A stretch of 64,000 bases of DNA from Bacteroidota bacterium. GTDB lineage: Bacteria > Bacteroidota > Ignavibacteria > UBA10030 > UBA6906. The stretch lies in assembly GCA_030835135.1 (NCBI GenBank), contig JAUQWO010000070.1, positions 23,548-87,547 of the forward strand, given 5' to 3'. Of the stretch, positions 280 through 16,315 are shown in pieces (position 1 is the stretch's first letter; the number at the start of each line of letters is the position of its first letter). Position numbers and translations under genes: made by a program. Below the pieces are notes generated by a model, which saw only the letters and a program-made list of their open reading frames with translations, had not been told where the DNA came from and ran no database searches.

Positions 280-308
280 AACATACCGGGATTCTCAGGG
301 TTTGTCAA
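280..308 (-). promoter_or_regulatory. sigma70-type promoter TTGACA-N17-TATGTT
   Basis: Minus strand TTGACA at 308-303, exact 17-nt spacer, TATGTT at 285-280; faces the gene starting at 84. Confidence 0.55.
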
Positions 309-336: not shown

Positions 337-447
337 CGCCGGATCTGGTCCCAAGCTGGGGAATTCAAGCATCATCAGATCTCTGTGCGAGTCCCATCCG
401 CCCCGCAGAAAGTGCCTGAGTCAACTTGATTCGGGCATTCTTGTTTT
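337..447 (+). ncRNA. candidate structured small RNA, copy 1
   Basis: Bulged stem-loop 358-395, conserved linker GCCCCGCAG, G.U-rich hairpin 411-439 then CTTGTTTT. Upstream TTGTCA-N17-TACGCT at 302-330. Homologous copy at 2443-2520 with compensatory changes. Confidence 0.45.
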
Positions 448-483
448 CGGTGAGTACCTTTCACTCGAGCAGGCGCTGCGTTT

Positions 484-514
484 CTTTCAACATCTTTCAA
501 CACTTCTTTCAACA
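484..514. repeat. three direct copies of CTTTCAACA
   Basis: Copies at 484-492, 494-502, 506-514. Confidence 0.8.
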
Positions 515-701
515 TCTGTTTTCCTTGGCTTGGTGCCGAACGCAGTGGACGCAAGGTATCCCTTCGTGGGTACCCATACGACGAGAATTGGGATCTCATC
601 CTGCCTTCGCAGGCCCCCCGTCGCAGTTGTCAGCAGGCCACGCCCTTCCCGTGGTCACGCGGTGGCGTATTCGCCGGAGCGCCAGATTGATCGATTGTGA
701 T

Positions 702-1766
702 TCAAGGCTTCAGGAACTCAAGGATCCTCTGATTGACTTCATCCGTGTGGGTAAACATCAAGTCATGTCCGGTACCTGGAATGAGATGGATCTCGATCCC
801 CGGAGCGATCTTCGCGAGACGACTGACTGCGCTGTCCGCATCATAGCAGGTTTCATGCTCACCGATCATGTACAGCATGGGAACCCTCATCCCCTGGAGT
901 TCAGCGTCGCTGAGGACCGTCGGATTGACAGGCGTCTTGAATTTGAAACTACCGTAAGCGATCGTTATATACTCTACCCTCTCGTCCACGAGTGCCTTCC
1001 CCTCCTCACCCCTCTCGGCCAGATCCTTCCAAACCCAATTCATCATCCTTTCCTTGAAGTACCGTACCGGGAGAAGGGTGGACACCATGCCCCATATATA
1101 TGCACTCGGGAGAGGCAAGACGGTGAACGCAGGAGCCATGAGCACAGCGCCCTTCAGTCGTTCAGGATGGTCGAGCACGTACTGAGAAGCAATCCAACCT
1201 CCGTAGGAATATCCAATGATCCGAATGTCGTTGCCAAGACGAAGAGTGTCGAACAACTCGTCGAGCCAACCGGTAAAGTCGCGACCATTCTCAATTCTGC
1301 GAGTGGGAACGCTCCTCCCGAAATCCCAGATGTTGTCGAGTGCATAGGTCCTGAATTCCCTGGATAGAGCCGCGATGTTTGCGCTCCAGATATACGAATT
1401 TGAGCCGCCTCCCGGCAACAACACTAACGGTGGAGCGTCGATGGGGCCGCTGATCCTCATGAATGTCCAGCCAAACGAAGTCTGCACCAACCGTTCCTCG
1501 GAAATGGTGGGCCACCTATGGGCCATCTTGTCTTCAAATGCCAGATATCGCTCTCTTGCTTCCGTCGATCTAAATGGATGACCATCGGACATATCCATTT
1601 GCCCGGGACCAGAGAAAAGAGAAACATAGATCCACCCGGCAAAGACCACTACCACAAGGGTGATCCCACTCAATCCTCTGAGAAGATATTTAGCGACGTT
1701 ACGGGTATTACTGGACGGTTTTGCTGATGTGCTGACCGCCTGATGCTCCTCGATAGGTGCACACAT
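702..1766 (-). CDS. alpha/beta-fold hydrolase with N-terminal membrane anchor
   Basis: Nucleophile elbow GYSYGG, oxyanion motif LLPGGG, C-terminal GTGHDL; hydrophobic N-terminal helix; GGAGG RBS upstream of ATG 1766. Confidence 0.88.
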   Translation of the reverse strand: MCAPIEEHQAVSTSAKPSSNTRNVAKYLLRGLSGITLVVVVFAGWIYVSLFSGPGQMDMSDGHPFRSTEARERYLAFEDKMAHRWPTISEERLVQTSFGWTFMRISGPIDAPPLVLLPGGGSNSYIWSANIAALSREFRTYALDNIWDFGRSVPTRRIENGRDFTGWLDELFDTLRLGNDIRIIGYSYGGWIASQYVLDHPERLKGAVLMAPAFTVLPLPSAYIWGMVSTLLPVRYFKERMMNWVWKDLAERGEEGKALVDERVEYITIAYGSFKFKTPVNPTVLSDAELQGMRVPMLYMIGEHETCYDADSAVSRLAKIAPGIEIHLIPGTGHDLMFTHTDEVNQRILEFLKP

Positions 1767-1817
1767 GGAATTGTCCTCCGGTTGGTGACGGTACCTGATG
1801 AGATCAAGTCATTCGTT

Positions 1818-2384
1818 TTAGGAAAGCAAACGAGGTTTCAGATCTTCATCAGCCGGGGACTTGTGTGATAAGTTCTGGATCCGCAGGAGGGAGACAACTT
1901 GACGCGCAGTTGAAAGCACCAGTTCCTGCTGCTTCAGCAGGACAGTGACACGGGCATTCTCCGCGAGGCAGAGGGAACGCCAAAGGGGAATCCATTCGCA
2001 TCTGTCGATTGATGTATCCGGAGCATCCATTTCCGGCGACAACCAGAAGATGGTCCAGTCCCTTTGGGCTCCATGCTCTGCAAGCGGCAATTCAGTGAAG
2101 GTCTCATACGGCTCGTGCAGGTATTCTTGAAGGGAGGCGGCATCCAGATCGACCTTGATCAGATAGACCAGGATCTGCAATGCACAAACCACCGCAAAGA
2201 AGAGAGCCGGCCTATCCTTTTCCATGAGCCAATGATCAATAGGATTGAGTGCTTCGTCGCGGTTCCATCCGCGCAGGAAGTCGGTGTGCCATCGAACAAA
2301 TACATCCCCATCCCTTCCGGATAGAAGAGGATCCTTCCCCGGGAGGGCACGCATGACGTTACCAAAACCCAAGGAGATTGTCAA
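1818..2384 (-). CDS. hypothetical protein (start uncertain, possibly degenerate)
   Basis: 188-codon open frame with no recognisable motif. The track's TTG start is the -35 hexamer of a promoter, so the true start must lie downstream. Confidence 0.35.
   Translation of the reverse strand: MTISLGFGNVMRALPGKDPLLSGRDGDVFVRWHTDFLRGWNRDEALNPIDHWLMEKDRPALFFAVVCALQILVYLIKVDLDAASLQEYLHEPYETFTELPLAEHGAQRDWTIFWLSPEMDAPDTSIDRCEWIPLWRSLCLAENARVTVLLKQQELVLSTARQVVSLLRIQNLSHKSPADEDLKPRLLS
2356..2384 (-). promoter_or_regulatory. sigma70-type promoter TTGACA-N17-TAACGT
   Basis: Minus strand TTGACA 2384-2379, 17-nt spacer, TAACGT 2361-2356; same position relative to the repeated element as the promoter at 280-308. 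Confidence 0.55.
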
Positions 2385-2442
2385 TGAATCCGAATGGCGT
2401 TACAGGACCCCTCGACGCAGGCCAGGGTGGGATTCAAAACAT

Positions 2443-2526
2443 GGGGAAATCGAGCATCATCAGTGTTCTGTGCGACCCCGATCTGCCCCGCAGGAAATGC
2501 CCGAAGTGATTTGGGCATTTCCATTT
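2443..2526 (+). ncRNA. candidate structured small RNA, copy 2
   Basis: Stem-loop 2443-2479 with the same GCA-TCAT-CAG-loop-CTG-TGC core, GCCCCGCAG linker and hairpin AAATGCCCGA/TTGGGCATTT at 2495-2520. Confidence 0.45.
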
Positions 2527-2599
2527 CCCGGAGAGCGGCTTCCCATGAACGTGCGCGATGGGGGTAAGCAGGTTCCTGTGCCAGTTCTTCACGACATCC

Positions 2600-3661
2600 C
2601 TATCGAGCGTCCCCATCGATCACCGCACGCGCCCATCGTACGACGAATTCAGGGTAGTCTTCCGGATAGCGCGGTCCATCTGGCGTCACGATCACGAGCG
2701 AATGACCAACCCCCTGAAGGATCCTGACGGTAACATCCCGCCCACATCTTCGCAAACCCTCGAATACGTCTACCGTGCTCTCCGTGTCCACGACCTCGTC
2801 ATCTGATCCGATAACCTCGAGCACAGCAGCCCTGACCTTCAGGAAGGCTGGCATGGGGTCGTATTCGATCTTCCGAGAAAAGGCATTGAAGAATGCAGGC
2901 GAAGTGAGGGCGGGGTTGCGGACAGTCTGCGGAATCAGCGGTGCGAAACGAGCGAAGGACCGGAGCCGGTTCTCCAATGAATCACGCGCCCCCCGCGTAA
3001 CCCCATGTGTTGCTCCGGACAGATCCATTCTCGCAACGCCGCCATAGAACGCCCACAACGCCGAAGTTGCATCAGTCCCGGCCCTGACTTCATCCTCCGA
3101 TGCTCCCCGCTCGCGAAGCGCTCTGCCAATTGCATAGAGCGTCTGCCTCGACGGCCTGACACCTGATCCAGAACTGAGAATGATGAATCTGAGGGATGAA
3201 TCGTTGCTCGCCGCCAGCGTGCCCACCCAGCCACCCTCACTCCTGCCGAGAATGCCGATCTTGCCAGGCATGACATCGCTGCGTGTCCGGAGATACCGAA
3301 CGCCCGCGGCAAGATCGGTCGCGAGATCCTCATAATCAGAAGTGTCCAATAGACCGCCTGACCCCCCGGAGCCTCGCTTATCATAGAGCAGAACCGCGAA
3401 ACCTCCGCGGGCAAAGGCGTTCGCATGGACACGAAACGCTGGCTCGTCAAACGTCGCTGGTCCCGCCCCGTGGGTGATCACAACGGCCGGGAATGGCCCG
3501 TCGCCTTCGGGCTTGACAATGGCACCGGCCAGACAGGTATGGCCATTGTGAAACGTGATTGAATCGACCCCATGATCGAAAGGGGGCCCTCCCCCGGTTT
3601 GCGCGTATCCGGGGTTACAGCCCGTGAGCACCAATACCATCCTTATTACGAGCCTTCGCAT
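2600..3661 (-). CDS. exported alpha/beta hydrolase (S9/S33-like)
   Basis: HGAG, YDKRGSG, nucleophile GRSEGG, GSDDEVV and GVGHSL motifs; N-terminal signal/lipobox-like LTGC. Confidence 0.88.
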   Translation of the reverse strand: MRRLVIRMVLVLTGCNPGYAQTGGGPPFDHGVDSITFHNGHTCLAGAIVKPEGDGPFPAVVITHGAGPATFDEPAFRVHANAFARGGFAVLLYDKRGSGGSGGLLDTSDYEDLATDLAAGVRYLRTRSDVMPGKIGILGRSEGGWVGTLAASNDSSLRFIILSSGSGVRPSRQTLYAIGRALRERGASEDEVRAGTDATSALWAFYGGVARMDLSGATHGVTRGARDSLENRLRSFARFAPLIPQTVRNPALTSPAFFNAFSRKIEYDPMPAFLKVRAAVLEVIGSDDEVVDTESTVDVFEGLRRCGRDVTVRILQGVGHSLVIVTPDGPRYPEDYPEFVVRWARAVIDGDAR

Positions 3662-3877
3662 GCATGCCTCCCGGGGAGATTGCGCCTTCTTGTCTCACAA
3701 TTCGAAAGGAACAGGAGCATCCGCGGTTCGCCTGAAACGGGAAGCGCGAACCCACGTCAGTCTCGACAGCTGTCGTCGACTCTTCCCCATTGTTCACAAA
3801 CGGGAAGTCGATGCGATGCGATGACACTATCATGCCTCTCGATGGCTGTTGAGGCACGAGGCGTCGTAGGCATAGGT

Positions 3878-4546
3878 TCAGGGGTGCAGCGGCCACTCTG
3901 TTTCTAAGGTCAGATTCGCGAAGGACCCCCCCGAGCGGTCAGCGGTGTACAGCCCGATCATTCCGCCTTTCCTGTCACTGAGCAGATGCACGCGCAGGCT
4001 CGGACTCTCCGCATTGTTTACGTACACCAGTGCTTCATCGTTGCGAACCACGATCCGGATGTGAAACCAGTCGTCCGGATCAGGCGCAGGATCCACCACA
4101 TGCTCGTAGATGCCCTTGTGTTCTTCCCGCAAACGCTGCCAGGTGTACTGCGGAAGACTGATGTATTGAACACACCGCGACCTCCGCACGGAATCCGTGC
4201 TCGGAAAATGGAACGGCCGGAAGTAGATTGCGTCAAACGTCGAATCATCGGCCCCCCGGAACGCGATACCGAGAAAACTCCGCTGGAAGATGTTCTGCCC
4301 CTTCAGATCAACCTCAATGGTCCCCGATGACAATGACACCCCATTGATCCACACCAGCCCTTCGCCGTACTCCTCGCTCAACACCAGTCCGTTCATCCTA
4401 GGATCCGGCACTGGCTCGACAAGCCGGTTGATCACCGTAAGACCGTCCCTCCGAAGCAGATCTCTGAGATCGAACCGGACGATCTCCTTGCCATTTGCCA
4501 CGGATTGGACGGCCAGCAAACAGCCGAGGATGACGATGCCGTTCAT
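3878..4546 (-). CDS. secreted DUF1080-like beta-sandwich protein
   Basis: Signal peptide MNGIVILGCLLAVQSVANG; motifs GTIEVDLKG, FLGIAF, DWFHIRIVV, GMIGLY resemble the DUF1080/lectin-like fold. Start reassigned to ATG 4546. Confidence 0.6.
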   Translation of the reverse strand: MNGIVILGCLLAVQSVANGKEIVRFDLRDLLRRDGLTVINRLVEPVPDPRMNGLVLSEEYGEGLVWINGVSLSSGTIEVDLKGQNIFQRSFLGIAFRGADDSTFDAIYFRPFHFPSTDSVRRSRCVQYISLPQYTWQRLREEHKGIYEHVVDPAPDPDDWFHIRIVVRNDEALVYVNNAESPSLRVHLLSDRKGGMIGLYTADRSGGSFANLTLETEWPLHP

Positions 4547-4730
4547 GAGGGATCTCCTTGCATGGGATTTGCCTCTTCCATTGATTGAGCACACGTGGAT
4601 TGACCCTTGAATGATGGTGACACGTATCCAGAGACCCGCCATCCGGTTTCAAAGAACTCCCTTGTATGTGCGGCCCGCCATGGGGATCGTCTCGCGCCCT
4701 CAGTGGGTGGATCATCATGTCCCCGCACCA

Positions 4731-4988
4731 TCAAAGGCCGATCAGAGGTACCTTTGCCCTCCGACGCATCACTTCCCCGTCGCAGATCCAATCGAGTAGC
4801 ACAGAGTGATGCGAGGACGATTGCTCCTTGAGCCATGCGTCATTCACATGCCCCACGCGGAACCGGACCACGAGACGACGATCGGGGTTGAGGCTTTGTA
4901 TTCGTTGCGGATGAGAGGAAGTTGCAAGCAGAACGGCCAACTCATGGCGCAGAAATACCAACTCGCCGCTTTTCTGCCTGGGAAACAC
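4731..4988 (-). pseudogene. remnant of the N-terminus of an integrase-core (IS3-like) transposase
   Basis: ELVFLRHELAVL...DRRLVVRF resembles the ENLALRHQLAVL...DR N-terminal motif of that family (from memory); no DDE core follows. Confidence 0.3.
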
Positions 4989-5063
4989 GGGAAGTCCAAG
5001 CGCGGAATTGCACGAAAGGTTCAGACCACGAAGGAATCCAATGTTTCAGGCTGCAACGTGCTC

Positions 5064-5243
5064 TCATTTGCCTGGACGGCGTGAGCGGCTTGGGATCTGA
5101 CCTGGGTTGAGCGTCACCACTTTCCCATCCTTCCAGATCGCGACCGGTTCACCTAGCTTCCTGTGACGTTCCAGAGCACGTGCCACAGCCTCTTTGACAC
5201 CCTCGATGATCAGCTCCCGTGTCTTGCGTTGCTGCTTTGTCAT
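5064..5243 (-). CDS. small putative antitoxin normally paired with zeta-toxin/AAA ATPases
   Basis: 59 aa, GVKEAVARALERHRKLGEPVAIWKDGKVVTL; GGAG RBS; its ATG overlaps the TGA of the upstream remnant (ATGA). Confidence 0.7.
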   Translation of the reverse strand: MTKQQRKTRELIIEGVKEAVARALERHRKLGEPVAIWKDGKVVTLNPGQIPSRSRRPGK

Positions 5244-5408
5244 ACATACTCCCAAAGCCTCTTCCAAACCGGAGCCGGATGCACCACTGGCTCACTGTCC
5301 ATCTGTCGCTCCGCGCTACGACGGGCCGAGAAGCAGAAATATCGAACACATGCCAGCGCGACTTGAACTTCCGAAGAGCGACATAGTGACGACGGAACAT
5401 CCTCAAGC
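5240..5408 (-). pseudogene. frameshifted C-terminal remnant of a zeta-toxin-like/AAA ATPase
   Basis: Three frame segments EDV / RRHYVALRKF..RWHVFDISASRPVVAR / VHPAPVWKRLWEYV* match the family C-terminus (PEDVIRRRY..GLRNF..W.VFDNS); no P-loop present. Confidence 0.6.
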
Positions 5409-5415
5409 GTTCTCT

Positions 5416-7668: not shown

Positions 7669-8332
7669 GAGTTCGCTCCGGAGTGTGAGGGCAACATCTC
7701 CAACATCAACTGTTGCCTTTGTGGTTCTGAGCAGACCCTGCATTGCCGCTCTCTCTGCAATGCTCGCGGGGTGCCGGGTCTTCTGCATCGGTTAGAGTAT
7801 TCCTACAATACTCCAATGCGCAGGGCTTGTCAAGGGAAATATCCCGGCTACTCTGATCGCCGACGGATCTCTGATTCTGGCCCCCGCGCCTCACATTCAA
7901 TGATCACAGAGATTCTGTCAGACCCCCACCGAACCCGCCCGATCCCGCTTCGCGGAATCGCATTCTCAGTATCGACGCTCCATTGATCATCGATGATTCT
8001 CCTCCCCTCCTTCTTTCTCTCTCCCCTGTCCGGTGCATGCCGAGATCTTCGACGAGTCGCAGATACACACAAGGCCCGCCCCACAATACAGGACGAGCCT
8101 CCCGCACAATGCAAATGGTCGCCAGGGGGATCGAGTCCCCATAGGAACTACAGCCCGCGCAGTGCTCTCTCACCCGTTGACCACCGAACAGTCAATCGAG
8201 GCGGCGCCATGCTATGCCCCCGATGGTATCCTAGGGAGAATTCTTCCAATTGGAACCAATCTGACCCTTTTGTGGTTAACCTGGTACTGAATTCCGACGA
8301 GGTTTCTCGATACTCTATCAAAGGAGAGCTGT

Positions 8333-9283
8333 ATGGCAGAGAAGAGGATTATTGCGGTCATAGGCGCGACCGGCGCTCAGGGAGGCGGACTTGCCCGCGC
8401 CATTCTCGCTGATCCGAAGGGAGGGTTCGCAGTCAGGGCGATCACGCGAGACGTCAACTCCGAAAAGGCACAGGCGCTGAAGCGTCTTGGGGCCGAAGTG
8501 GTCGCCGCAGATGTCAAAGACGTCGAAAGCATCAAGCGGGCATTCACTGGTGCGTACGGGGCTTTCTGCGTGACGTTCTTCTGGGAGGATTTTTCCGCGG
8601 AGAACGAGAAGGCTCAGGCGATCAATATGGCCCGCGCTGCGAAGGAAGCCGGAGTGCAGCACGCGATCTGGTCGACGTTCGAGGACACGCGCAAGTACAT
8701 CCCCCTGAGCGACAATCGCATGCCGACATTGCAGGGGAAATACAAGGTGGCGCATTTCGATGCAAAGAGCGAAGCGGATCAGACGTTCAAGGACCTGGGC
8801 GTTCCGACCACTTTCCTTCTGACTTCGTTCTACTGGGAGAATCTCATCTACTTCGGCGCGGGCCCGCAGAAGGGATCCGACGGCAAGCTTGCCCTCACGT
8901 ATCCGATGGGACAACAGAAGCTTCCTGGTATCGCCTCCGAAGACATCGGCAAGTGCGTGTATGGGATCTTCAAGAAGGGACGCGAATTCATCGGCAAGAC
9001 GGTGGGCGTTGCCGGTGAGCACCTGACAGGAACAGAAATGGCCGCCGCGCTCTCCAAAGCTCTCGGGCAGGAGGTGCGCTATAACGATGTCCCTCCGGAC
9101 GTATATAGGGGCTTCGGCTTCCCCGGCGCCGACGACATGGGCAATATGTTCCAGTTCAAGCGCGACTTCGAGGACGTCTACACCGGTGCGCGCAGCATCG
9201 AAATCTCCCGGTCTCTCAACCCGGAATTGCAGTCATTTGGATATTGGCTCTCGAAGAACGCGAACCGCATTCCGATACAATGA
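8333..9283 (+). CDS. NmrA/HSCARG family NAD(P)-binding protein
   Basis: VIGATGAQGG Rossmann motif, HFDAK, TSFYWEN; AAGGAG RBS. Confidence 0.92.
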   Translation: MAEKRIIAVIGATGAQGGGLARAILADPKGGFAVRAITRDVNSEKAQALKRLGAEVVAADVKDVESIKRAFTGAYGAFCVTFFWEDFSAENEKAQAINMARAAKEAGVQHAIWSTFEDTRKYIPLSDNRMPTLQGKYKVAHFDAKSEADQTFKDLGVPTTFLLTSFYWENLIYFGAGPQKGSDGKLALTYPMGQQKLPGIASEDIGKCVYGIFKKGREFIGKTVGVAGEHLTGTEMAAALSKALGQEVRYNDVPPDVYRGFGFPGADDMGNMFQFKRDFEDVYTGARSIEISRSLNPELQSFGYWLSKNANRIPIQ

Positions 9284-9398
9284 GTGCAAGACGACCACCG
9301 GCCAGATCTTCCGGCGGACGCAAGAGTACCATGCTGGCACGGCGGTCACGTATTCGCGCCCGGACCGTAGTCTGAAAGCCACAAAGCAATTCAACCAG

Positions 9399-9421
9399 GA
9401 GCCCGAGCATGCCTCGGGCTC
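9399..9421. terminator. hairpin between convergent genes
   Basis: Perfect 9-bp stem GAGCCCGAG/CTCGGGCTC, 5-nt loop, followed by TTGTGCTT. Confidence 0.55.
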
Positions 9422-9573
9422 TTGTGCTTCGTAAGCACCCACGTGGCCCGCATCCGCCCCTGACCCCGAGAACCCCGAACGTACCCTATGCGCCCCCTGA
9501 ATCCCTTCCCGAAGACTCTTCTGACCTCGTGAGACACCGCTTCCATCTCCCCATCCTGGAGACGTGATACCTG

Positions 9574-10554
9574 TTACCGGGTGAATTCATGTAGCAATCG
9601 AAGATAGATACGGTAATTCTCCAACGAGACGCCGGGAGGTGTCTGGTGATCGACACTCGGGATGAACCCGCCGGACTTCATCAGGGGCAGGAGCCGCTCG
9701 AACTCCGCCCTCATGGCCTCTTCACCGTGGGGCATGACCATCTTGTCGTAATGGCCGATCATCCTCAGGTCGGGAAACTGAGCGCGCAGAGACATCCCAT
9801 CGACGCCAGCCTGCCGTTCCAGCGGCAGCACGCCCTCGATCCCATTGTCCAGGAGCCATGGGACGAGGAGCGTCACATCGCCGTCCGTGTCCACGATGGT
9901 GAGCATCTCCATCTCCTTCGCCCGTGCCAGCAGTTGCTTGTAGTAGGGCGACATGAATTCGTTCATCACCCCCCTGCCGATCATGGGTCCGTTGTTATAC
10001 GACATATCCTCGGCGATCGTCATGAATGTCGGACGGCCGATCCTCTCGATCCGATCCAGGATGGCCAGGTTAAAGTCCAGCAGATCCTGGTTCATCCGGT
10101 GCAGCAGTTCCGGCTGATCGTAAAAGGTCAACATCAGTTTGGAGAAACCCATCAATGTACGGGGAAACCAGAAGAAGCCCTCGAGTGTGATCCAGATGAT
10201 GGCTTCGCCGCTTGTCTGCCGTGCCAGCCACGGCGTCATTCCCAGGATCGCGTCGCCATGGTCGGGAAACAGATACGAACGATGCGCCAGATAGTCGTCC
10301 ATGGTGGAGACCATTCCCTCAACGTGGTGCTGTTCCGCCTCGATCGTCGCATCCGTCGTGCTGAACCAGAACTGCTTGTAGGGGTCGAGGCCGAAATAGT
10401 CGTGGACCTCGAACACGCCTGTCTGTGCGGCAGACAGTCCTTCGGTATGCCAGCGATCGATCGTTTTATCCCACCACATGGCCCATTCCCAGCGCGGTAA
10501 CCTGTCGACTGGTTGGAAGTTCATAACGGCGCGAAACCGTTCAACGTGATTCAT
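9574..10554 (-). CDS. uroporphyrinogen decarboxylase (URO-D/MtaA) superfamily protein
   Basis: ERFRAVMNFQPVDRLP start, AEDMSYNNGPMI, DTDGDV, GGFIPSVDHQTPPGVSLENY. Start reassigned to ATG 10554. Confidence 0.85.
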   Translation of the reverse strand: MNHVERFRAVMNFQPVDRLPRWEWAMWWDKTIDRWHTEGLSAAQTGVFEVHDYFGLDPYKQFWFSTTDATIEAEQHHVEGMVSTMDDYLAHRSYLFPDHGDAILGMTPWLARQTSGEAIIWITLEGFFWFPRTLMGFSKLMLTFYDQPELLHRMNQDLLDFNLAILDRIERIGRPTFMTIAEDMSYNNGPMIGRGVMNEFMSPYYKQLLARAKEMEMLTIVDTDGDVTLLVPWLLDNGIEGVLPLERQAGVDGMSLRAQFPDLRMIGHYDKMVMPHGEEAMRAEFERLLPLMKSGGFIPSVDHQTPPGVSLENYRIYLRLLHEFTR

Positions 10555-12523: not shown

Positions 12524-15500
12524 ATGACGGTACGGCCCTCCCTCCTCGCCATCTCCTTCCTCCTTCTCGCCCTGGCGATCGCTTGCGCGCCTGCGCAACG
12601 CACCCACCCCCGCCTCATGGCGGATCAGGCGGAGATCGACACAGCAAAACACTGGATCAGGAACCATGCCTGGTACCGCCAGCTCTTCGACGAACACAGG
12701 AAAGAGATCGACCGGTTCATCGCGCGGGGGCCCGTCTACGTCTCGCCGCTGAAGCAGACCTACGAATACCAGATGTATATCTGTCCGAAGCATCGGGTGG
12801 AACTCCTCTTCGATGAGTCCCAACCGTTCGCGCATCAGTGTCCGAAGGACAGCCAGGAGGTGTTCGCCGGCGGAAAATACGACATGGCATGGGCCGGCTG
12901 GTACAACCGCGTCCTCGCGAACCGGCTGGTGTGGATGGGACTTCTCTACGCGGTCGATGGCAACGAACGGTACGCCAGAGCCGGACGGGAGATCCTGATG
13001 AAGTTCGCCCGTCTCTATCTCACGTATCCGACCGGCAATACCATCCTCGGCCCTGCCCACGTGTTCTTCGGGACCCTCTCCGAATCCTTCTGGGGGGTGG
13101 ACATGGCGTACGGGTATGATCTCCTGTACAACTATCCCGGGTTCAGCGCAGAAGACCATCGCATCCTCAAAGACAGTCTCTTCTATCCGCTCGCCCGCAT
13201 CACCCAGCTCTTTCCCGAATCGGCATCGAACAGGCAACTCTGGTACAACAACGTCTCGGCCGCGGTGGGATTCCTGTACGACGATCAGGAGCTGATCGAC
13301 TTCGCCCTGCGCGGCACGTACGGGTTCGACTGGCAACTGGGCTCCGCGCTTCCCGAAAGCGGCTTCTGGGCAGAATGGTCCGGCTACCACTTCGTTGCGC
13401 TGCGGGGGATGATCCACCTCGCGGAGATGGCACGGCACAACGGCATCGATCTCTATCATAAGGAGATCGCCGGGAGGACGATGAAGAAGATGTTCGACGC
13501 TCCTCTCCTTCTGGCACAGCCCAACTATGAGTTTCCCCTGAGCAAGGACAGCGGTGGTGGCAGCATCCTGGAGTATGCGCCGTACTATGAGGTCGGGTAC
13601 GCCGTGTACCGAGACCCGAAGTACCTCAGCATCATGCACCTCAGTCACCTCGACCGGGGATCGCAACTCGTCGGTGAGACCTCTGCCCTGGGACGGGCAC
13701 CGGAACCGATCGCATTGTTCACGCTCGTCCCCGACCTCCCCCCGGCAACCACTCCGGGCATCTCTGAAGAAAGCGTCGATCTGGCCGGGAACGGATTTGC
13801 CGTGCTCCGGAACAAGAACGATCGATCCTACCTGTACCTTGACTACGGGATCATGGGCGGTGAGCACGGCCATCCCGACCGCCTGCAGATCGGGTACTAT
13901 GCAACGGACCGAAACTGGATCGTGGATCCGCTGAACGAGTCGTACCAGAACCCGAACCTCCAGCTCTGGTACCGGCAGTCCATCGCGCACAACACCCTCG
14001 TCGTCGACCAGACCTCCCAGACATGGACCAATGGCTATGGCAGGTTCTTCGGCACATTGCCCGGCCTCCAGGTCGCATCAGGCGGCACCACCACTGCGTA
14101 TCCGGGGGTGACACTCACGCGAACGATCGTGCAACCCGCGGAGTATTTCATCGACCTCTTCGATGCGCAGGCACCGGAGCACCATATCTACGATCTCCCG
14201 CTCCACAGCTTCGGCGCGCTCACGGTCCGTGGTGTGGATCTGGAACCGCAACCGGCCGACCTCTTCGGCACGCGGCCGGGGATCCCTGGCTACGATCAGC
14301 TCACCGCGATGTCCCTCGGGCAGACGGACAGCGACTGGCACGCTGTGTTCGTCGACAAGGGACAGTCGCTGTCCATCACCATGCTCGGCGAACCCGGAAC
14401 CGGGGTCCTGCAGGCAATGACGCCGCCCATCGGCGGCTTCTATAAACAAATGGTCAAGGAGCAGGTCCCGCTGCCGATGGTCATGAGCCGTCGCGTGACC
14501 GCCGCGACGCGCTTCGCGAGCCTGATCTCTGCCTCTCCGGGAGCACCGCGTGACCTCCAGTTCCGCAAGGGTGAGAAGGCGGGCGAGTATGAGGTGCGAT
14601 CCGGTGACACACTGGACCTCCTGTCCATCGACACAGATCATTCCATCTACTCGATGACGCGCAGAGAACACGGGAGACTCTCACGGATCGCTGGCTTCAA
14701 TGTCCAGGAGGTTCGCGACGCTTCCGGAGTGCTCCTTTCGCTCCCCTCCCCCCTCCGACAGATCCAATGCACCTGGAGCCCATCGGCGCTTGATCTGCTC
14801 GCGCCCCGGGGATTCACTCGCGCGGAGATCCGTTCCCCGGACGTGGCAAGGGTGACGCTCAACGGCTCCCCCGTGGCATTCCAGAGGCGCGGAGAGTTCA
14901 TCGTGGTCACACGATCGGAACACATCGCGATGGCAGTTTCGTCCGCACAAGACAGCACACTGTTCGCAGGGCGGAGGAACCGCGTGCACGTGACGATCGC
15001 CAATCCAACACCGGCCCCTATCCGGGGAAAGGTGGTCATCCGACTCGCCGCCGATTGGCAGGAACGCATGGAGAGTCAGCTTGGGTGGTGGGGTGGGATC
15101 GTGAATCTCCGGGCGACAAACAAAGTACCCGTCGAACGCCTGACATTCCCTGCGGTGTTTCGCCGGACCGCAGAGTGGATCGACGGCATGGCATCGGAGA
15201 CCCTGAGCGTCAGCGCAGGAGGCACCGAGTCACTTACTTTTGATATTTATGTGCCTGGCGATGTTGCACCGGCCATCTACCCCGGGATCGTTGCCTTCAA
15301 TGCCGATACCATCAGGACCTCTTTCGTCGTCAAGCCGCCGGTCAGAGCACACCTCAGCCTCCCCAATGGTGACAGGGAGATCCTGCGCATCGAGCTTCGT
15401 AACAACACCAACGAGCGTATGACCGTGCGAGCCGGGATCAACCCGGATCCGTCCTGGAAGTCCGGCGGGGATCTCCGGCATGACGTTCGGCTGAAACCGT

Positions 15501-16315
15501 TCGAGACAAAGCGCATCACCATACCACTCCGCCTCGCGGGGTACACGAGCGAGAATCAATGCTACCCCATCAGGATGGACCTGGAGACCGGTGGCTACAG
15601 GGAGTCACTCGTGCGCGACTTCTTCGTGAGCACCGCACACTTCGCACCGGTTCCGCCGGCTCTCGATGGTTCATGGAAGGGATGGAACAGGCAGCATCCG
15701 GTCACGATCGACCGGGCATCGCAGATCGGCAGACTCCTCTTCGGGAATCAGCCATGGACGGGTGGCGGGGATCTTTCGGCCGAGGTCTACGCGATGTATG
15801 ATGCCGGATATATTTACGTGGGTGCAGCCGTACGTGATGACAGCCTTGTCACACACTGGGATTTTCCGCGGATGAGTTACCCCTGGGACACTGATTGTAT
15901 GGAGGTGGTGCTGGACGTTCGCACGAACTCTGCGCAGGGGAGCGATCCCCCCACCCCGGGGCTCTTCCGGCACCTATCGATGGCGGAATACCGAAGGACC
16001 GAATTCCCCCCGGAGCTGTGGCAGGGCGGTGGCGCAGGTGGGCCCCTTCTGCCGAAACCGAATCTCATCCCCGGCGCAGAGACCTACTTCCATCGCACGG
16101 CCGATGGATACACGATGATCGGCCGGTATCCGATCAGCAGTCTGAATGGATTTCCGGTCCGGCCGGGATCGAGGATCGGCTTTGATTGTGCGGTCAGCGA
16201 CAACGACGGAACGAACTACCGTAGGAACGTACACATCTGGGCCGGCTACACACAGAACCAATCGTGGTGGGACATGGGCACGATTGGCGTGATGGTGTTC
16301 GGGTCTGCGAAATGA
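12524..16315 (+). CDS. multidomain heparinase II/III / alginate-lyase-like protein with Ig-like and C-terminal CBM9/DOMON-like domains
   Basis: Signal peptide after GGAG RBS (ATG 12524); toroid region with SNRQLW and EWSGYH; HGHPDRL and HNTLVVD heparinase II/III motifs; C-terminal DLSAEVYAMYD..YIYVGA.VRDD and IGFD..VSDNDG. Confidence 0.8.
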   Translation: MTVRPSLLAISFLLLALAIACAPAQRTHPRLMADQAEIDTAKHWIRNHAWYRQLFDEHRKEIDRFIARGPVYVSPLKQTYEYQMYICPKHRVELLFDESQPFAHQCPKDSQEVFAGGKYDMAWAGWYNRVLANRLVWMGLLYAVDGNERYARAGREILMKFARLYLTYPTGNTILGPAHVFFGTLSESFWGVDMAYGYDLLYNYPGFSAEDHRILKDSLFYPLARITQLFPESASNRQLWYNNVSAAVGFLYDDQELIDFALRGTYGFDWQLGSALPESGFWAEWSGYHFVALRGMIHLAEMARHNGIDLYHKEIAGRTMKKMFDAPLLLAQPNYEFPLSKDSGGGSILEYAPYYEVGYAVYRDPKYLSIMHLSHLDRGSQLVGETSALGRAPEPIALFTLVPDLPPATTPGISEESVDLAGNGFAVLRNKNDRSYLYLDYGIMGGEHGHPDRLQIGYYATDRNWIVDPLNESYQNPNLQLWYRQSIAHNTLVVDQTSQTWTNGYGRFFGTLPGLQVASGGTTTAYPGVTLTRTIVQPAEYFIDLFDAQAPEHHIYDLPLHSFGALTVRGVDLEPQPADLFGTRPGIPGYDQLTAMSLGQTDSDWHAVFVDKGQSLSITMLGEPGTGVLQAMTPPIGGFYKQMVKEQVPLPMVMSRRVTAATRFASLISASPGAPRDLQFRKGEKAGEYEVRSGDTLDLLSIDTDHSIYSMTRREHGRLSRIAGFNVQEVRDASGVLLSLPSPLRQIQCTWSPSALDLLAPRGFTRAEIRSPDVARVTLNGSPVAFQRRGEFIVVTRSEHIAMAVSSAQDSTLFAGRRNRVHVTIANPTPAPIRGKVVIRLAADWQERMESQLGWWGGIVNLRATNKVPVERLTFPAVFRRTAEWIDGMASETLSVSAGGTESLTFDIYVPGDVAPAIYPGIVAFNADTIRTSFVVKPPVRAHLSLPNGDREILRIELRNNTNERMTVRAGINPDPSWKSGGDLRHDVRLKPFETKRITIPLRLAGYTSENQCYPIRMDLETGGYRESLVRDFFVSTAHFAPVPPALDGSWKGWNRQHPVTIDRASQIGRLLFGNQPWTGGGDLSAEVYAMYDAGYIYVGAAVRDDSLVTHWDFPRMSYPWDTDCMEVVLDVRTNSAQGSDPPTPGLFRHLSMAEYRRTEFPPELWQGGGAGGPLLPKPNLIPGAETYFHRTADGYTMIGRYPISSLNGFPVRPGSRIGFDCAVSDNDGTNYRRNVHIWAGYTQNQSWWDMGTIGVMVFGSAK

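What the first reader, a model, noticed from the sequence alone, without database searches (positions are those of the whole stretch)
337..2526. Two copies of an unrecognised structured non-coding element with covariation
Seen: copies at about 358-447 and 2443-2526 share an outer stem, a GCA/TGC stem, a conserved TCAT bulge, a CAG/CTG stem with a variable 4-nt loop (ATCT vs TGTT), the linker GCCCCGCAG and a terminal hairpin. The outer stem changes GGGA/TCCC to GGGG/CCCC (compensatory). The terminal hairpins keep pairing through G.U swaps that work only on the + strand. No + strand gene follows either copy. Inference: a multicopy ~100-nt sRNA or ssDNA-structured element (for example a recombination or MITE-type site) punctuating an accessory gene array.
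Basis: partly seen in the sequence, partly recalled or inferred. Interest (0 to 1): 0.68.

Follow-up and report, generated by a model that had tools for sequence, protein, structure and literature searches.

The report
Terminator-linked conserved intergenic repeat family
The two look-alike stretches are real, diverged members (with a third, decayed copy nearby) of an undescribed repeat family from uncultured Ignavibacteria and Calditrichota: a 45-base conserved core followed at once by a transcription-terminator hairpin.

Summary
The two copies exist: cores at 360-406 and 2445-2491 on the + strand, 81% identical, and far beyond chance. There is also a third, degenerate copy at 7892-7938. No Rfam family matches.

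A pattern scan of GTDB genomes and contig look-ups gave about 22 further copies in uncultured Ignavibacteria-like and Calditrichota MAGs and metagenome contigs.

**What the family shares**
- A sharp 45-nt core: AATGTGACnAtCATCAGGGTTCTGTGGGACCCCCATCCGCCCCGC.
- A hairpin 0-8 nt downstream whose sequence differs between copies.
- A T tract after the hairpin in 11 of 22 copies, never an A tract before it, and more G.U pairs on the + strand. These are + strand intrinsic terminators.

**How copies are arranged**
- They cluster. The window has 3 in 8 kb and none in the other 56 kb.
- All copies in a locus share one orientation.
- Orientation relative to flanking genes varies.
- They sit among toxin-antitoxin, hydrolase and secreted-protein genes.

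- The "compensatory" outer stem is not compensatory.
- The CAG/CTG stem never covaries.
- Only one G-C/C-G swap supports the GCA/TGC stem.

Coding tests, integron attC features, MITE features and RNA-seq contigs all gave nothing decisive.

Best reading (about 0.4): a multicopy small RNA or 3'-end RNA module. Rivals are a DNA-level recombination or selfish repeat, and a tiny ORF.

The parts
337..359 (+). c1 lineage-specific 5' module (GTTGTCGCCGGATCTGGTCCCAAGCTG); resembles a shortened direct duplicate of the core's 3' half
   Evidence: Sequence; self-similarity alignment; similar modules in c3, L059 copies and the X9 ortholog
360..406 (+). c1 core (family profile positions 1-47), ends in GCCCCGC
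   Evidence: nhmmer E = 8e-13; alignment A8
411..447 (+). c1 intrinsic-terminator-like hairpin (411-439, 13 bp, 3 G.U) and T-rich tail CTTGTTTT
   Evidence: Terminator scan hit; folding on both strands; homologous hairpin and downstream DNA in L097 6565-6634
2413..2444 (+). c2 5' part (CGACGCAGGCCAGGGTGGGATTCAAAACATGG); the indel boundary against L059 lies at 2422/2423
2445..2491 (+). c2 core
   Evidence: nhmmer E = 5e-14; alignment A8
2493..2530 (+). c2 hairpin (2493-2522, 13 bp, 1 G.U) with weak T tail ATTTCCCG
7851..7891 (+). c3 5' module, a diverged direct duplicate of the core (TGATCGCCGACGGATCTCTGATTCTGGCCCCC)
7892..7938 (+). c3 degenerate core (1-nt deletion in ATCATCAG, 3' end ACCGAACCCGC); synteny with L059 ends at 7924 inside it
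   Evidence: nhmmer E = 0.008
7940..7960 (+). c3 hairpin CGATCCCGC-TTC-GCGGAATCG, of the same type as a further copy seen in runs X1/X2 and as the X9 ortholog of c1
280..308 (-). sigma-70-like promoter TTGACA-17-TATGTT reading away from c1 (context, shared with the c3 unit)
   Evidence: 10 of 12 matches, one of the two best in 9 kb
2354..2382 (-). TTGACA-17-TAACGT just left of c2, next to the start of the 178-aa gene (context; read by eye, below the scan's threshold)
   Evidence: Sequence
7805..7833 (-). sigma-70-like promoter TTGACA-17-TATTGT reading away from c3 toward the GH120-like gene (context)
2423..3867 (.). 1,445-bp segment (c2 plus the S15-like hydrolase gene) absent from the syntenic locus L059; junctions carry an imperfect 17-bp direct repeat
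7925..9574 (.). 1,650-bp segment (3' part of c3, its hairpin, and the NmrA-like gene 8333-9283 on +) replaced by about 100 bp in L059

Best explanation
The copies are diverged members of a multicopy family whose functional unit is an RNA 3' end. It consists of a 45-nt, largely unstructured, C-rich conserved segment (…AUCAUCAGGGUUCUGUGGGACCCCCAUCCGCCCCGC), followed directly by a Rho-independent terminator on the same strand.

Depending on the locus, the unit is either the tail of the upstream gene's mRNA or a stand-alone small RNA of roughly 80-125 nt. The conserved segment would act through its sequence, by base pairing or by binding a protein, rather than through a fold.

**Shown:** the family, its core boundaries, the strand-specific terminator, clustering, co-orientation, and the absence of a known family match.

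**Inferred:** transcription, and action as RNA.

The three window copies depart from the family consensus at otherwise invariant positions, and I found no convincing + strand promoter upstream of them. They may therefore be decaying members.
For: 1. Every full copy has a hairpin starting 0-8 nt after GCCCCGC, although hairpin sequences are unrelated between subfamilies. In 11 of 22 copies at least 4 of the next 8 bases are T. No copy (0 of 22) has an A tract before the hairpin. G.U pairs number 25 of 285 on the + strand against 14 of 259 on the - strand. Terminator scans independently flag c1, both L091 copies and both L094 copies.
2. The core is 86% identical on average over 20 copies from at least 10 different assemblies, with flanks that cannot be aligned. 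Paralogues inside one MAG differ as much as copies from different phyla, which points to constraint rather than recent copying.
3. Contexts are mixed: 13 copies lie after a co-oriented gene (6-470 nt after its stop; in L102 6 nt after) and 9 lie next to divergent genes. A described multicopy sRNA family of Bacteroides, FopS, shows the same mix: 9 intergenic, 4 antisense, 1 3'-UTR-derived (PMC11697453).
4. In L091 the unit lies between two terminators, as a separate small transcription unit would. In L094a a TATTAT box ends 8 nt before the core.
5. There is no coding support (see rivals) and no Rfam match.
Against: - No transcript evidence. Metatranscriptome contigs of the same study miss all three copies, and no RNA runs were found for two other loci. 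These data are shallow, so this is absence of evidence only.
- There is no promoter at a fixed distance from the core across copies. The promoter scan finds none on the + strand before c1, c2 or c3.
- No conserved secondary structure in the core.
- Duplex energies between the core and the 34 translation-start regions of the window are no better than for shuffled cores.
- The distribution is patchy. Only 4 of 185,579 GTDB species representatives match the pattern, and no match in the JGI metagenome scan was a real copy.
- Strict co-orientation within loci and clustering are not expected for ordinary sRNA genes.
Confidence: 0.4

Rival explanations
1. A DNA-level site. The core would be recognised by a recombinase or transposase encoded elsewhere, or would serve as a landmark for ssDNA-based insertion. 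It would mark the borders of single-gene cassettes in hypervariable regions, as an integron-like or pdif-like arrangement without canonical attC.
For: - All copies in each of 6 multi-copy loci share one orientation, about 1/512 by chance. Orientation relative to genes is free.
- Copies are clustered, with 3 in the first 8 kb of the window and none in the other 56 kb.
- Intervals of 1.1-2.1 kb hold typical cassette cargo: MNT/HEPN, zeta toxin, NYN and hydrolases.
- Two present/absent segments against L059 have an edge at or inside a copy.
- The distribution across two phyla is patchy.
- Complete integrons are known in Ignavibacteriae (PMC9024848).
Against: - No R''/R' inverted boxes (RYYYAAC/GTTRRRY) on either strand, by inspection.
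- The empty site in L059 keeps no core at all for the c2 segment.
- Homology breaks fall at different core positions in L059a, L059-3085 and the X9 ortholog. There is therefore no fixed crossover point.
- No integrase or transposase among the 36 window ORFs scanned with Pfam.
- The T tracts and the G.U asymmetry point to RNA use of the hairpin.
Confidence: 0.22
2. A selfish or neutral mosaic intergenic repeat of the BOX/ERIC/BIME kind. It would be spread by duplication and recombination, be tolerated because it supplies terminators (and, in this genome, an outward promoter), and be decaying in the window.
For: - Modular build. A lineage-specific 5' module is itself a degenerate core duplicate. 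Then come the core, a variable hairpin, and an optional TTATCCAT..ATGGATAA palindrome.
- A 215-nt unit is duplicated within one MAG.
- Truncated copies are fused to unrelated DNA, including half a hydrolase gene.
- The c1 and c3 units include a complete - strand promoter.
Against: - The 45-nt core stays about 90% identical while everything around it has diverged beyond alignment, within and between genomes. That is hard to explain without a sequence-specific function.
- No terminal inverted repeats or target duplications were found.
Confidence: 0.2
3. A tiny protein-coding gene. Candidates are the + strand (M/V)TIIRVLWDPHPPR… and the - strand …RGGWGSHRTLMIVTF…(KQQGRHL*). With an antisense RNA it could form a type I toxin-antitoxin-like pair.
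For: - In the first 7 copies, variable sites fell mostly on one codon phase (6 of 9).
- In the extended subfamily several changes are synonymous in both of these frames. The - frame also has a conserved TGA and, in 4 copies, an ATG at the hairpin edge.
- Constraint on both strands could explain the high nucleotide conservation.
Against: - With 20 copies the variable columns split 12/10/9 by codon phase, and the best frame has 15 synonymous against 34 non-synonymous variant codons.
- Starts and stops are not conserved. L101 has a 1-nt deletion and L108 a 2-nt indel. The + frame has TGA in two held copies; by inspection these are L097b and L097c, and the X9 ortholog carries the same CTGTGAGA.
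- Profile searches of 5.8 billion proteins find only 5 and 4 short hypothetical ORFs.
- No Pfam hit.
- The peptide has only about 8 hydrophobic residues, unlike type I toxins (own knowledge).
Confidence: 0.07
4. A remnant of the 3' end of a larger gene, or the attachment-site duplicate of an integrating island.
For: - Peptide-like conservation in one frame.
- Position next to terminators.
- Direct repeats flanking accessory genes.
Against: - No larger protein with either peptide exists in the 5.8-billion-protein collection.
- In L059a the hydrolase homology starts only after the core-derived 16 codons.
- The core does not fit the 3' part of a tRNA, by positional check (own analysis).
- Every copy has its own terminator.
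Confidence: 0.04

Closest known systems
FopS (family of paralogous sRNAs) / GibS of Bacteroides thetaiotaomicron (PMC11697453)
   Same: A multicopy family (12-15 per genome) in Bacteroidota. It has a short conserved sequence segment plus a variable part and its own terminator. Loci are intergenic, antisense or 3'-UTR-derived, and it acts in genomes rich in polysaccharide-utilisation genes. It is possibly spread by mobile DNA.
   Different: No sequence likeness: the FopS-10 5' end is GTGTTTTTCATAGTATTAG. In FopS the conserved seed is at the 5' end behind a canonical promoter. Here the conserved part abuts the terminator and no common promoter is seen. FopS copies are dispersed rather than clustered and co-oriented. 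Transcription is not shown here.
Integron attC sites / CALIN arrays (PMC9024848)
   Same: Co-oriented, clustered sites of about 60-120 bp with a variable palindromic part. They separate single accessory genes (toxin-antitoxin genes, hydrolases) in variable regions. Integrons are known in Ignavibacteriae.
   Different: No R''/L''-L'/R' inverted boxes. The conserved part lies on one side of the hairpin only. A T tract follows the hairpin. Gene orientation is free. The empty site keeps no site copy. No IntI was seen in the window.
Mosaic intergenic repeats (BOX, ERIC, REP/BIME)
   Same: Modular, multicopy and intergenic. They often lie at gene 3' ends, contain hairpins that can act as terminators or mRNA stabilisers, and have truncated and rearranged copies.
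   Different: In REP/BIME the palindrome itself is the conserved part. Here the palindrome is free to vary and a linear 45-nt segment is conserved. The core is shared across two phyla, which is unusual for such repeats.
Type I toxin-antitoxin repeat loci (Ibs/Sib, Ldr/Rdl)
   Same: Multicopy short repeats in intergenic DNA. A small RNA with its own terminator lies opposite a very short open frame, and the distribution is patchy.
   Different: The open frames lack conserved starts and stops and a membrane-spanning hydrophobic stretch. There is no codon-level selection signal.

Membership tests
Any Rfam 15 family | Covariance-model score at or above the family's gathering threshold | tested here: not met
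   Window: 0 hits. Positions 250-2700 at E<=10: only a chance lncRNA hit at 15.8 bits. Seven related loci: only unrelated c-di-AMP and group II hits. Five more loci at E<=5: nothing credible.
Rho-independent (intrinsic) terminator | G+C-rich hairpin followed by a T tract on the transcribed strand | tested here: met
   22 of 22 copies have a hairpin 0-8 nt after the core, and 11 of 22 have at least 4 T in the next 8 nt. The scan tool flags c1, L091a/b and L094a/b. c2 and c3 have only weak T tails.
   RNAalifold: -1.5 kcal/mol, 0 compensatory pairs. CAG/CTG: 0 double changes. GCA/TGC: one C-G/G-C swap, c1 and c2 against the rest. The alternative GGGU/ACCC helix has two double changes, both in c1 only. 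There are too few events to decide.
Integron attC | R'' (RYYYAAC) and R' (GTTRRRY) inverted core sites flanking an imperfect palindrome | tested here: not met
   Inspection of both strands of c1, c2, L094a/b and others (sequences) found no such pair. The attC covariance model of IntegronFinder could not be run.
Integron attC | An integron integrase (IntI) nearby | tested here: not met
   No Phage_integrase hit in the 36 window ORFs scanned with Pfam. About 14 ORFs beyond 47 kb, and the contig outside the window, were not scanned.
MITE | Terminal inverted repeats and target-site duplication at fixed element ends | tested here: not met
   The unit ends in L091a/b/L075 and the c2 junctions show no inverted termini. 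The only flank repeat is an imperfect 17-bp one, with 11-12 of 17 bases matching.
REP/BIME (RAYT-associated) | The palindrome itself is conserved, with a GTAG-type 5' tetranucleotide | tested here: not met
   Hairpin sequences are unrelated between subfamilies, and the conserved part is linear. No search was made for a RAYT gene.
FopS/GibS sRNAs | Shared 5' seed sequence (R1/R1') | tested here: not met
   The FopS-10 and GibS 5' ends (GTGTTTTTCATAGTATTAG) have no likeness to the core.
Protein-coding gene or gene remnant | Open frame with conserved start and stop, codon-phase substitution bias, and homologues | tested here: not met
   for frames and substitution counts. Searches found only 9 short hypothetical ORFs in 5.8e9 proteins. 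One search found no Pfam hit.
Hammerhead ribozyme (CUGAUGA on the - strand) | CUGANGA … GAAA core with three helices | tested here: not met
   No GAAA or helix II/III arrangement after CUGAUGA in any copy (inspection). There is no Rfam hammerhead hit.

The most novel reading that the evidence does not exclude
The 45-nt core next to a hairpin is the recognition landmark of a cassette system not yet described in Ignavibacteria/Calditrichota. It would be orientation-locked and would act on single genes such as toxin-antitoxin pairs, hydrolases and NmrA-like genes. It would work like an integron array but with a different site architecture and an unknown recombinase encoded elsewhere.
Probability: 0.1. 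Interest if true: 0.8.

Novelty: new member of a known kind. Interest (0 to 1): 0.45.

Why it matters
If it is an RNA, it would be the first multicopy small-RNA or 3'-end module family described for Ignavibacteria and Calditrichota. These are abundant, uncultured polymer degraders of bioreactors and sediments whose RNA biology is essentially unknown. The family could be added to Rfam.

If it instead acts as DNA, the co-oriented clusters between single accessory genes would point to a new way of organising gene cassettes.

Either way, the 45-nt core is a cheap marker for hypervariable regions in these genomes, and a possible cause of assembly breaks.

Tried and rejected
1. **Recent tandem gene duplication.** The two flanking hydrolases are unrelated.
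2. **Metagenome scan** with AGCATCATCAGN{3,8}CTGTGCGA. It gave 57 hits, all chance or coding matches such as a transporter gene. A viral scan hit was also chance, and a second viral scan found nothing.
3. **First GTDB scan** with a strict three-block pattern gave 0 hits, so the window's species is not among the representatives.
4. **Coding.** Peptides in both frames were searched as profiles, codon-phase statistics were computed and Pfam was run.
5. **Origin from an alpha/beta hydrolase gene** (L059a). The hydrolase homology starts after the core.
6. **Integron attC, tRNA 3' end, RNase P CR-V likeness (ACAGAACCC), hammerhead, preQ1-like pseudoknot, T-box, DGR IMH.** These were checked by inspection and rejected. 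Helix 2 of the pseudoknot has uncompensated changes.
7. **Transcription.** Same-study metatranscriptome contigs do not cover the copies, even at 80% likeness. No RNA runs were found for L097 or L091.
8. **Target prediction** against the window's translation-start regions was no better than for shuffled cores.
9. **Extending the window leftwards.** The window's own proteins are not in the gene-position index.
10. **Literature search** for the core sequence found nothing.
Full report
**1. The observation**

Reading the region and aligning the two stretches confirms two related + strand segments.
- The 19-base pattern AGCATCATCAGNNNNCTGTGCGA occurs twice in the 64-kb window, against 0.02 expected.
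- A profile built later places the cores at 360-406 (c1) and 2445-2491 (c2). It also reveals a third, degenerate copy at 7892-7938 (c3; E = 0.008).
- c1 and c2 differ at 9 of 47 core positions, while their flanks do not align.
- Each core is followed within 1-4 nt by a strong hairpin that folds better on the + strand.
- Pfam shows that the neighbours of c1 and c2 are all on the - strand: an alpha/beta hydrolase at 702-1766, a 178-aa protein at 1818-2354 and an S15-like hydrolase at 2600-3661.
- These two hydrolases are not paralogues, so the repeat is not a leftover of a gene duplication.
- c3 is followed 370 nt later by an NmrA-like + strand gene (8333-9283).

**2. A wider family**

Rfam finds nothing. 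A first GTDB scan and the single metagenome scan gave nothing real. Laying Logan contigs on the region showed further, non-identical copies in the same and related metagenomes, with different terminal hairpins.

The source contig is an NCBI contig of 108.6 kb. Close relatives of its proteins are labelled Ignavibacteriota. The syntenic locus L059 from MAG GCA_016707525.1 has three copies.

A looser pattern then found true members in four GTDB MAGs, in loci L075, L091, L094, L097, L099 and L101. Contigs fetched through spurious short ORFs added L102-L108. nhmmer finds 25 copies in these 15 loci.

What the family shares is a sharply bounded 45-nt core, AATGTGACnAtCATCAGGGTTCTGTGGGACCCCCATCCGCCCCGC. 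Mean column identity is 86% over 20 copies. The window copies are among the most divergent, for example GGG -> GCG and GGTT -> ATCT/TGTT.

**3. Anatomy**

- Directly after GCCCCGC (0-8 nt) every full copy has a hairpin whose sequence is unrelated between subfamilies.
- In 11 of 22 copies the hairpin is followed by a T tract. None has an A tract in front. G.U pairs are commoner on the + strand, 25 of 285 against 14 of 259.
- The scan tool independently calls c1, L091a/b and L094a/b terminators. The hairpins are therefore + strand intrinsic terminators.
- Upstream, conservation is lineage-specific. One subfamily (L075, L091a/b, L099a, L103, L108) has an extra 35-nt module.
- In one MAG a 215-nt unit lying between two terminators is duplicated.
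- In the window's clade the 5' module is a degenerate direct duplicate of the core.
- The c1 and c3 units also share a complete - strand sigma-70-like promoter reading away from the element. These are the two best promoter hits in 9 kb.
- No + strand promoter is predicted before c1, c2 or c3.

**4. Arrangement**

- Copies are clustered: 3 in the first 8 kb of the window and none in the remaining 56 kb; 3 in 4 kb of L097; 2 each in L091, L094 and L099.
- All copies within a locus point the same way, about 1/512 by chance.
- Relative to genes the orientation is free. Thirteen copies follow a co-oriented gene, often a T9SS-secreted protein or a Ser/Thr kinase. In L102 the core starts 6 nt after the stop codon. 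Nine copies adjoin divergent genes.
- Genes between neighbouring copies are typical accessory cargo: MNT/HEPN, zeta toxin, NYN and hydrolases.
- Against L059, the window has two extra segments. One is 2423-3867 (c2 plus the S15-like hydrolase gene). The other is 7925-9574 (the 3' part of c3, its hairpin and the NmrA-like gene).
- The empty site for the first segment keeps no core, only an imperfect 17-bp repeat.
- Homology breaks lie at different core positions in L059-3085, in L059a and in the X9 ortholog of c1. L059a is fused to a hydrolase gene lacking its first 127 codons.
- There is thus no fixed crossover point.

**5. Structure and coding tests**

*Structure*
- RNAalifold on ten copies predicts only the CAG/CTG mini-hairpin, at -1.5 kcal/mol with no compensatory change.
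- Counting pairs on 20 copies shows that CAG/CTG never covaries and breaks when it changes.
- An alternative GGGU/ACCC helix has two double changes, both in c1.

*Coding*
- Early copies suggested a period-3 pattern and readable peptides: + strand NVTIIRVLWDPHPPR and - strand RGGWGSHRTLMIVTF.
- With 20 copies the variable columns split 12/10/9 by codon phase. The best frame has 15 synonymous against 34 non-synonymous variants.
- Starts and stops are not conserved, and there are indels (L101, L108).
- Profile searches of 5.8 billion proteins return only nine short hypothetical ORFs.
- Pfam is silent.

*Transcription*
- Metatranscriptome contigs from the same study do not cover the copies. They are shallow and contig-based, so transcription remains untested.

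**6. Interpretation**

The best-supported reading is an RNA 3'-end module: a conserved, mostly single-stranded, C-rich 45-nt segment plus its own terminator. It would be used either as the tail of an mRNA or as a stand-alone small RNA.

The closest described analogue in behaviour is the FopS multicopy sRNA family of Bacteroides (PMC11697453), but there is no sequence relationship.

The strict co-orientation, the clustering in hypervariable DNA and the patchy distribution (4 of 185,579 GTDB species) keep DNA-level explanations alive. These include a recombination landmark for gene cassettes or a mosaic selfish repeat. Integrons are known in Ignavibacteriae (PMC9024848), but attC hallmarks are absent here.

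A small ORF or a gene remnant is unlikely. The window copies look like diverged, possibly decaying members.

**7. Verdict**

The feature is real and the family is undescribed.

Interest is moderate. It is a new member of a known kind (a multicopy sRNA or terminator-linked intergenic repeat), with a small chance of being a new kind of cassette site.

Noticed in passing
window 481-520: Three direct repeats CTTTCAACA(T/C), about 11 nt apart, lie between c1 and the end of the alpha/beta-hydrolase gene. They could be a protein-binding array.
   Followed up: no
window 4517-4879: Metatranscriptome contigs of three runs pile up here (word depth up to 32) and all end at 4877-4879, upstream of gene 3878-4642 (-). 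The stretch 4643-5415 has no supported gene. This could be a long 5' leader or a separate abundant RNA.
   Followed up: no
window 5075-5355: 78% identical to L097 3023-3304, which is the 3' end of a zeta-toxin gene plus its downstream DNA. This looks like a decayed toxin cassette, and in L097 that cassette is flanked by two cores.
   Followed up: partly
window 8333-9283 (+): An NmrA-like gene (Pfam E = 7e-59) on the + strand where the longest - strand ORF had suggested otherwise. It lies in a 1.65-kb segment absent from the related MAG, and an RNA contig begins at 8298.
   Followed up: partly
window 2408-2424 and 3855-3872: An imperfect 17-bp direct repeat (CGACGCAGGCCAGGGTG / CGTCGTAGGCATAGGTT) flanks the 1,445-bp segment that L059 lacks. 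L059 has a single hybrid copy.
   Followed up: partly
L059 about 15140-15745 (+): An ORF-less group II intron of about 600 nt (Rfam group-II-D1D4-4, 58 bits; a recognisable domain V and VI). It lies about 130 nt from copy L059b, on the opposite strand.
   Followed up: partly
L059 11118-11600 (-): The 5' part of a core is fused in frame to an alpha/beta-hydrolase gene lacking its first 127 codons. The missing half is not in the 19-kb locus.
   Followed up: yes
L059 15840-15870 (-) and L102 about 3000-3030 (-): A second conserved palindromic module, TTATCCAT…ATGGATAA, follows the terminator in some copies. It is also implied by the short ORF P0024.
   Followed up: no
window 302-308, 2376-2382, 7827-7833: The box TTGTCAA (TTGACA on the - strand, TTGTCA on the + strand) lies 53-64 nt left of all three copies. 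On the - strand it is the -35 box of good promoters for the neighbouring genes.
   Followed up: partly
L075 1993-2124 (+): A c-di-AMP riboswitch (Rfam, 97.9 bits) upstream of a 575-aa gene in the Calditrichota MAG. It is unrelated to the element.
   Followed up: no
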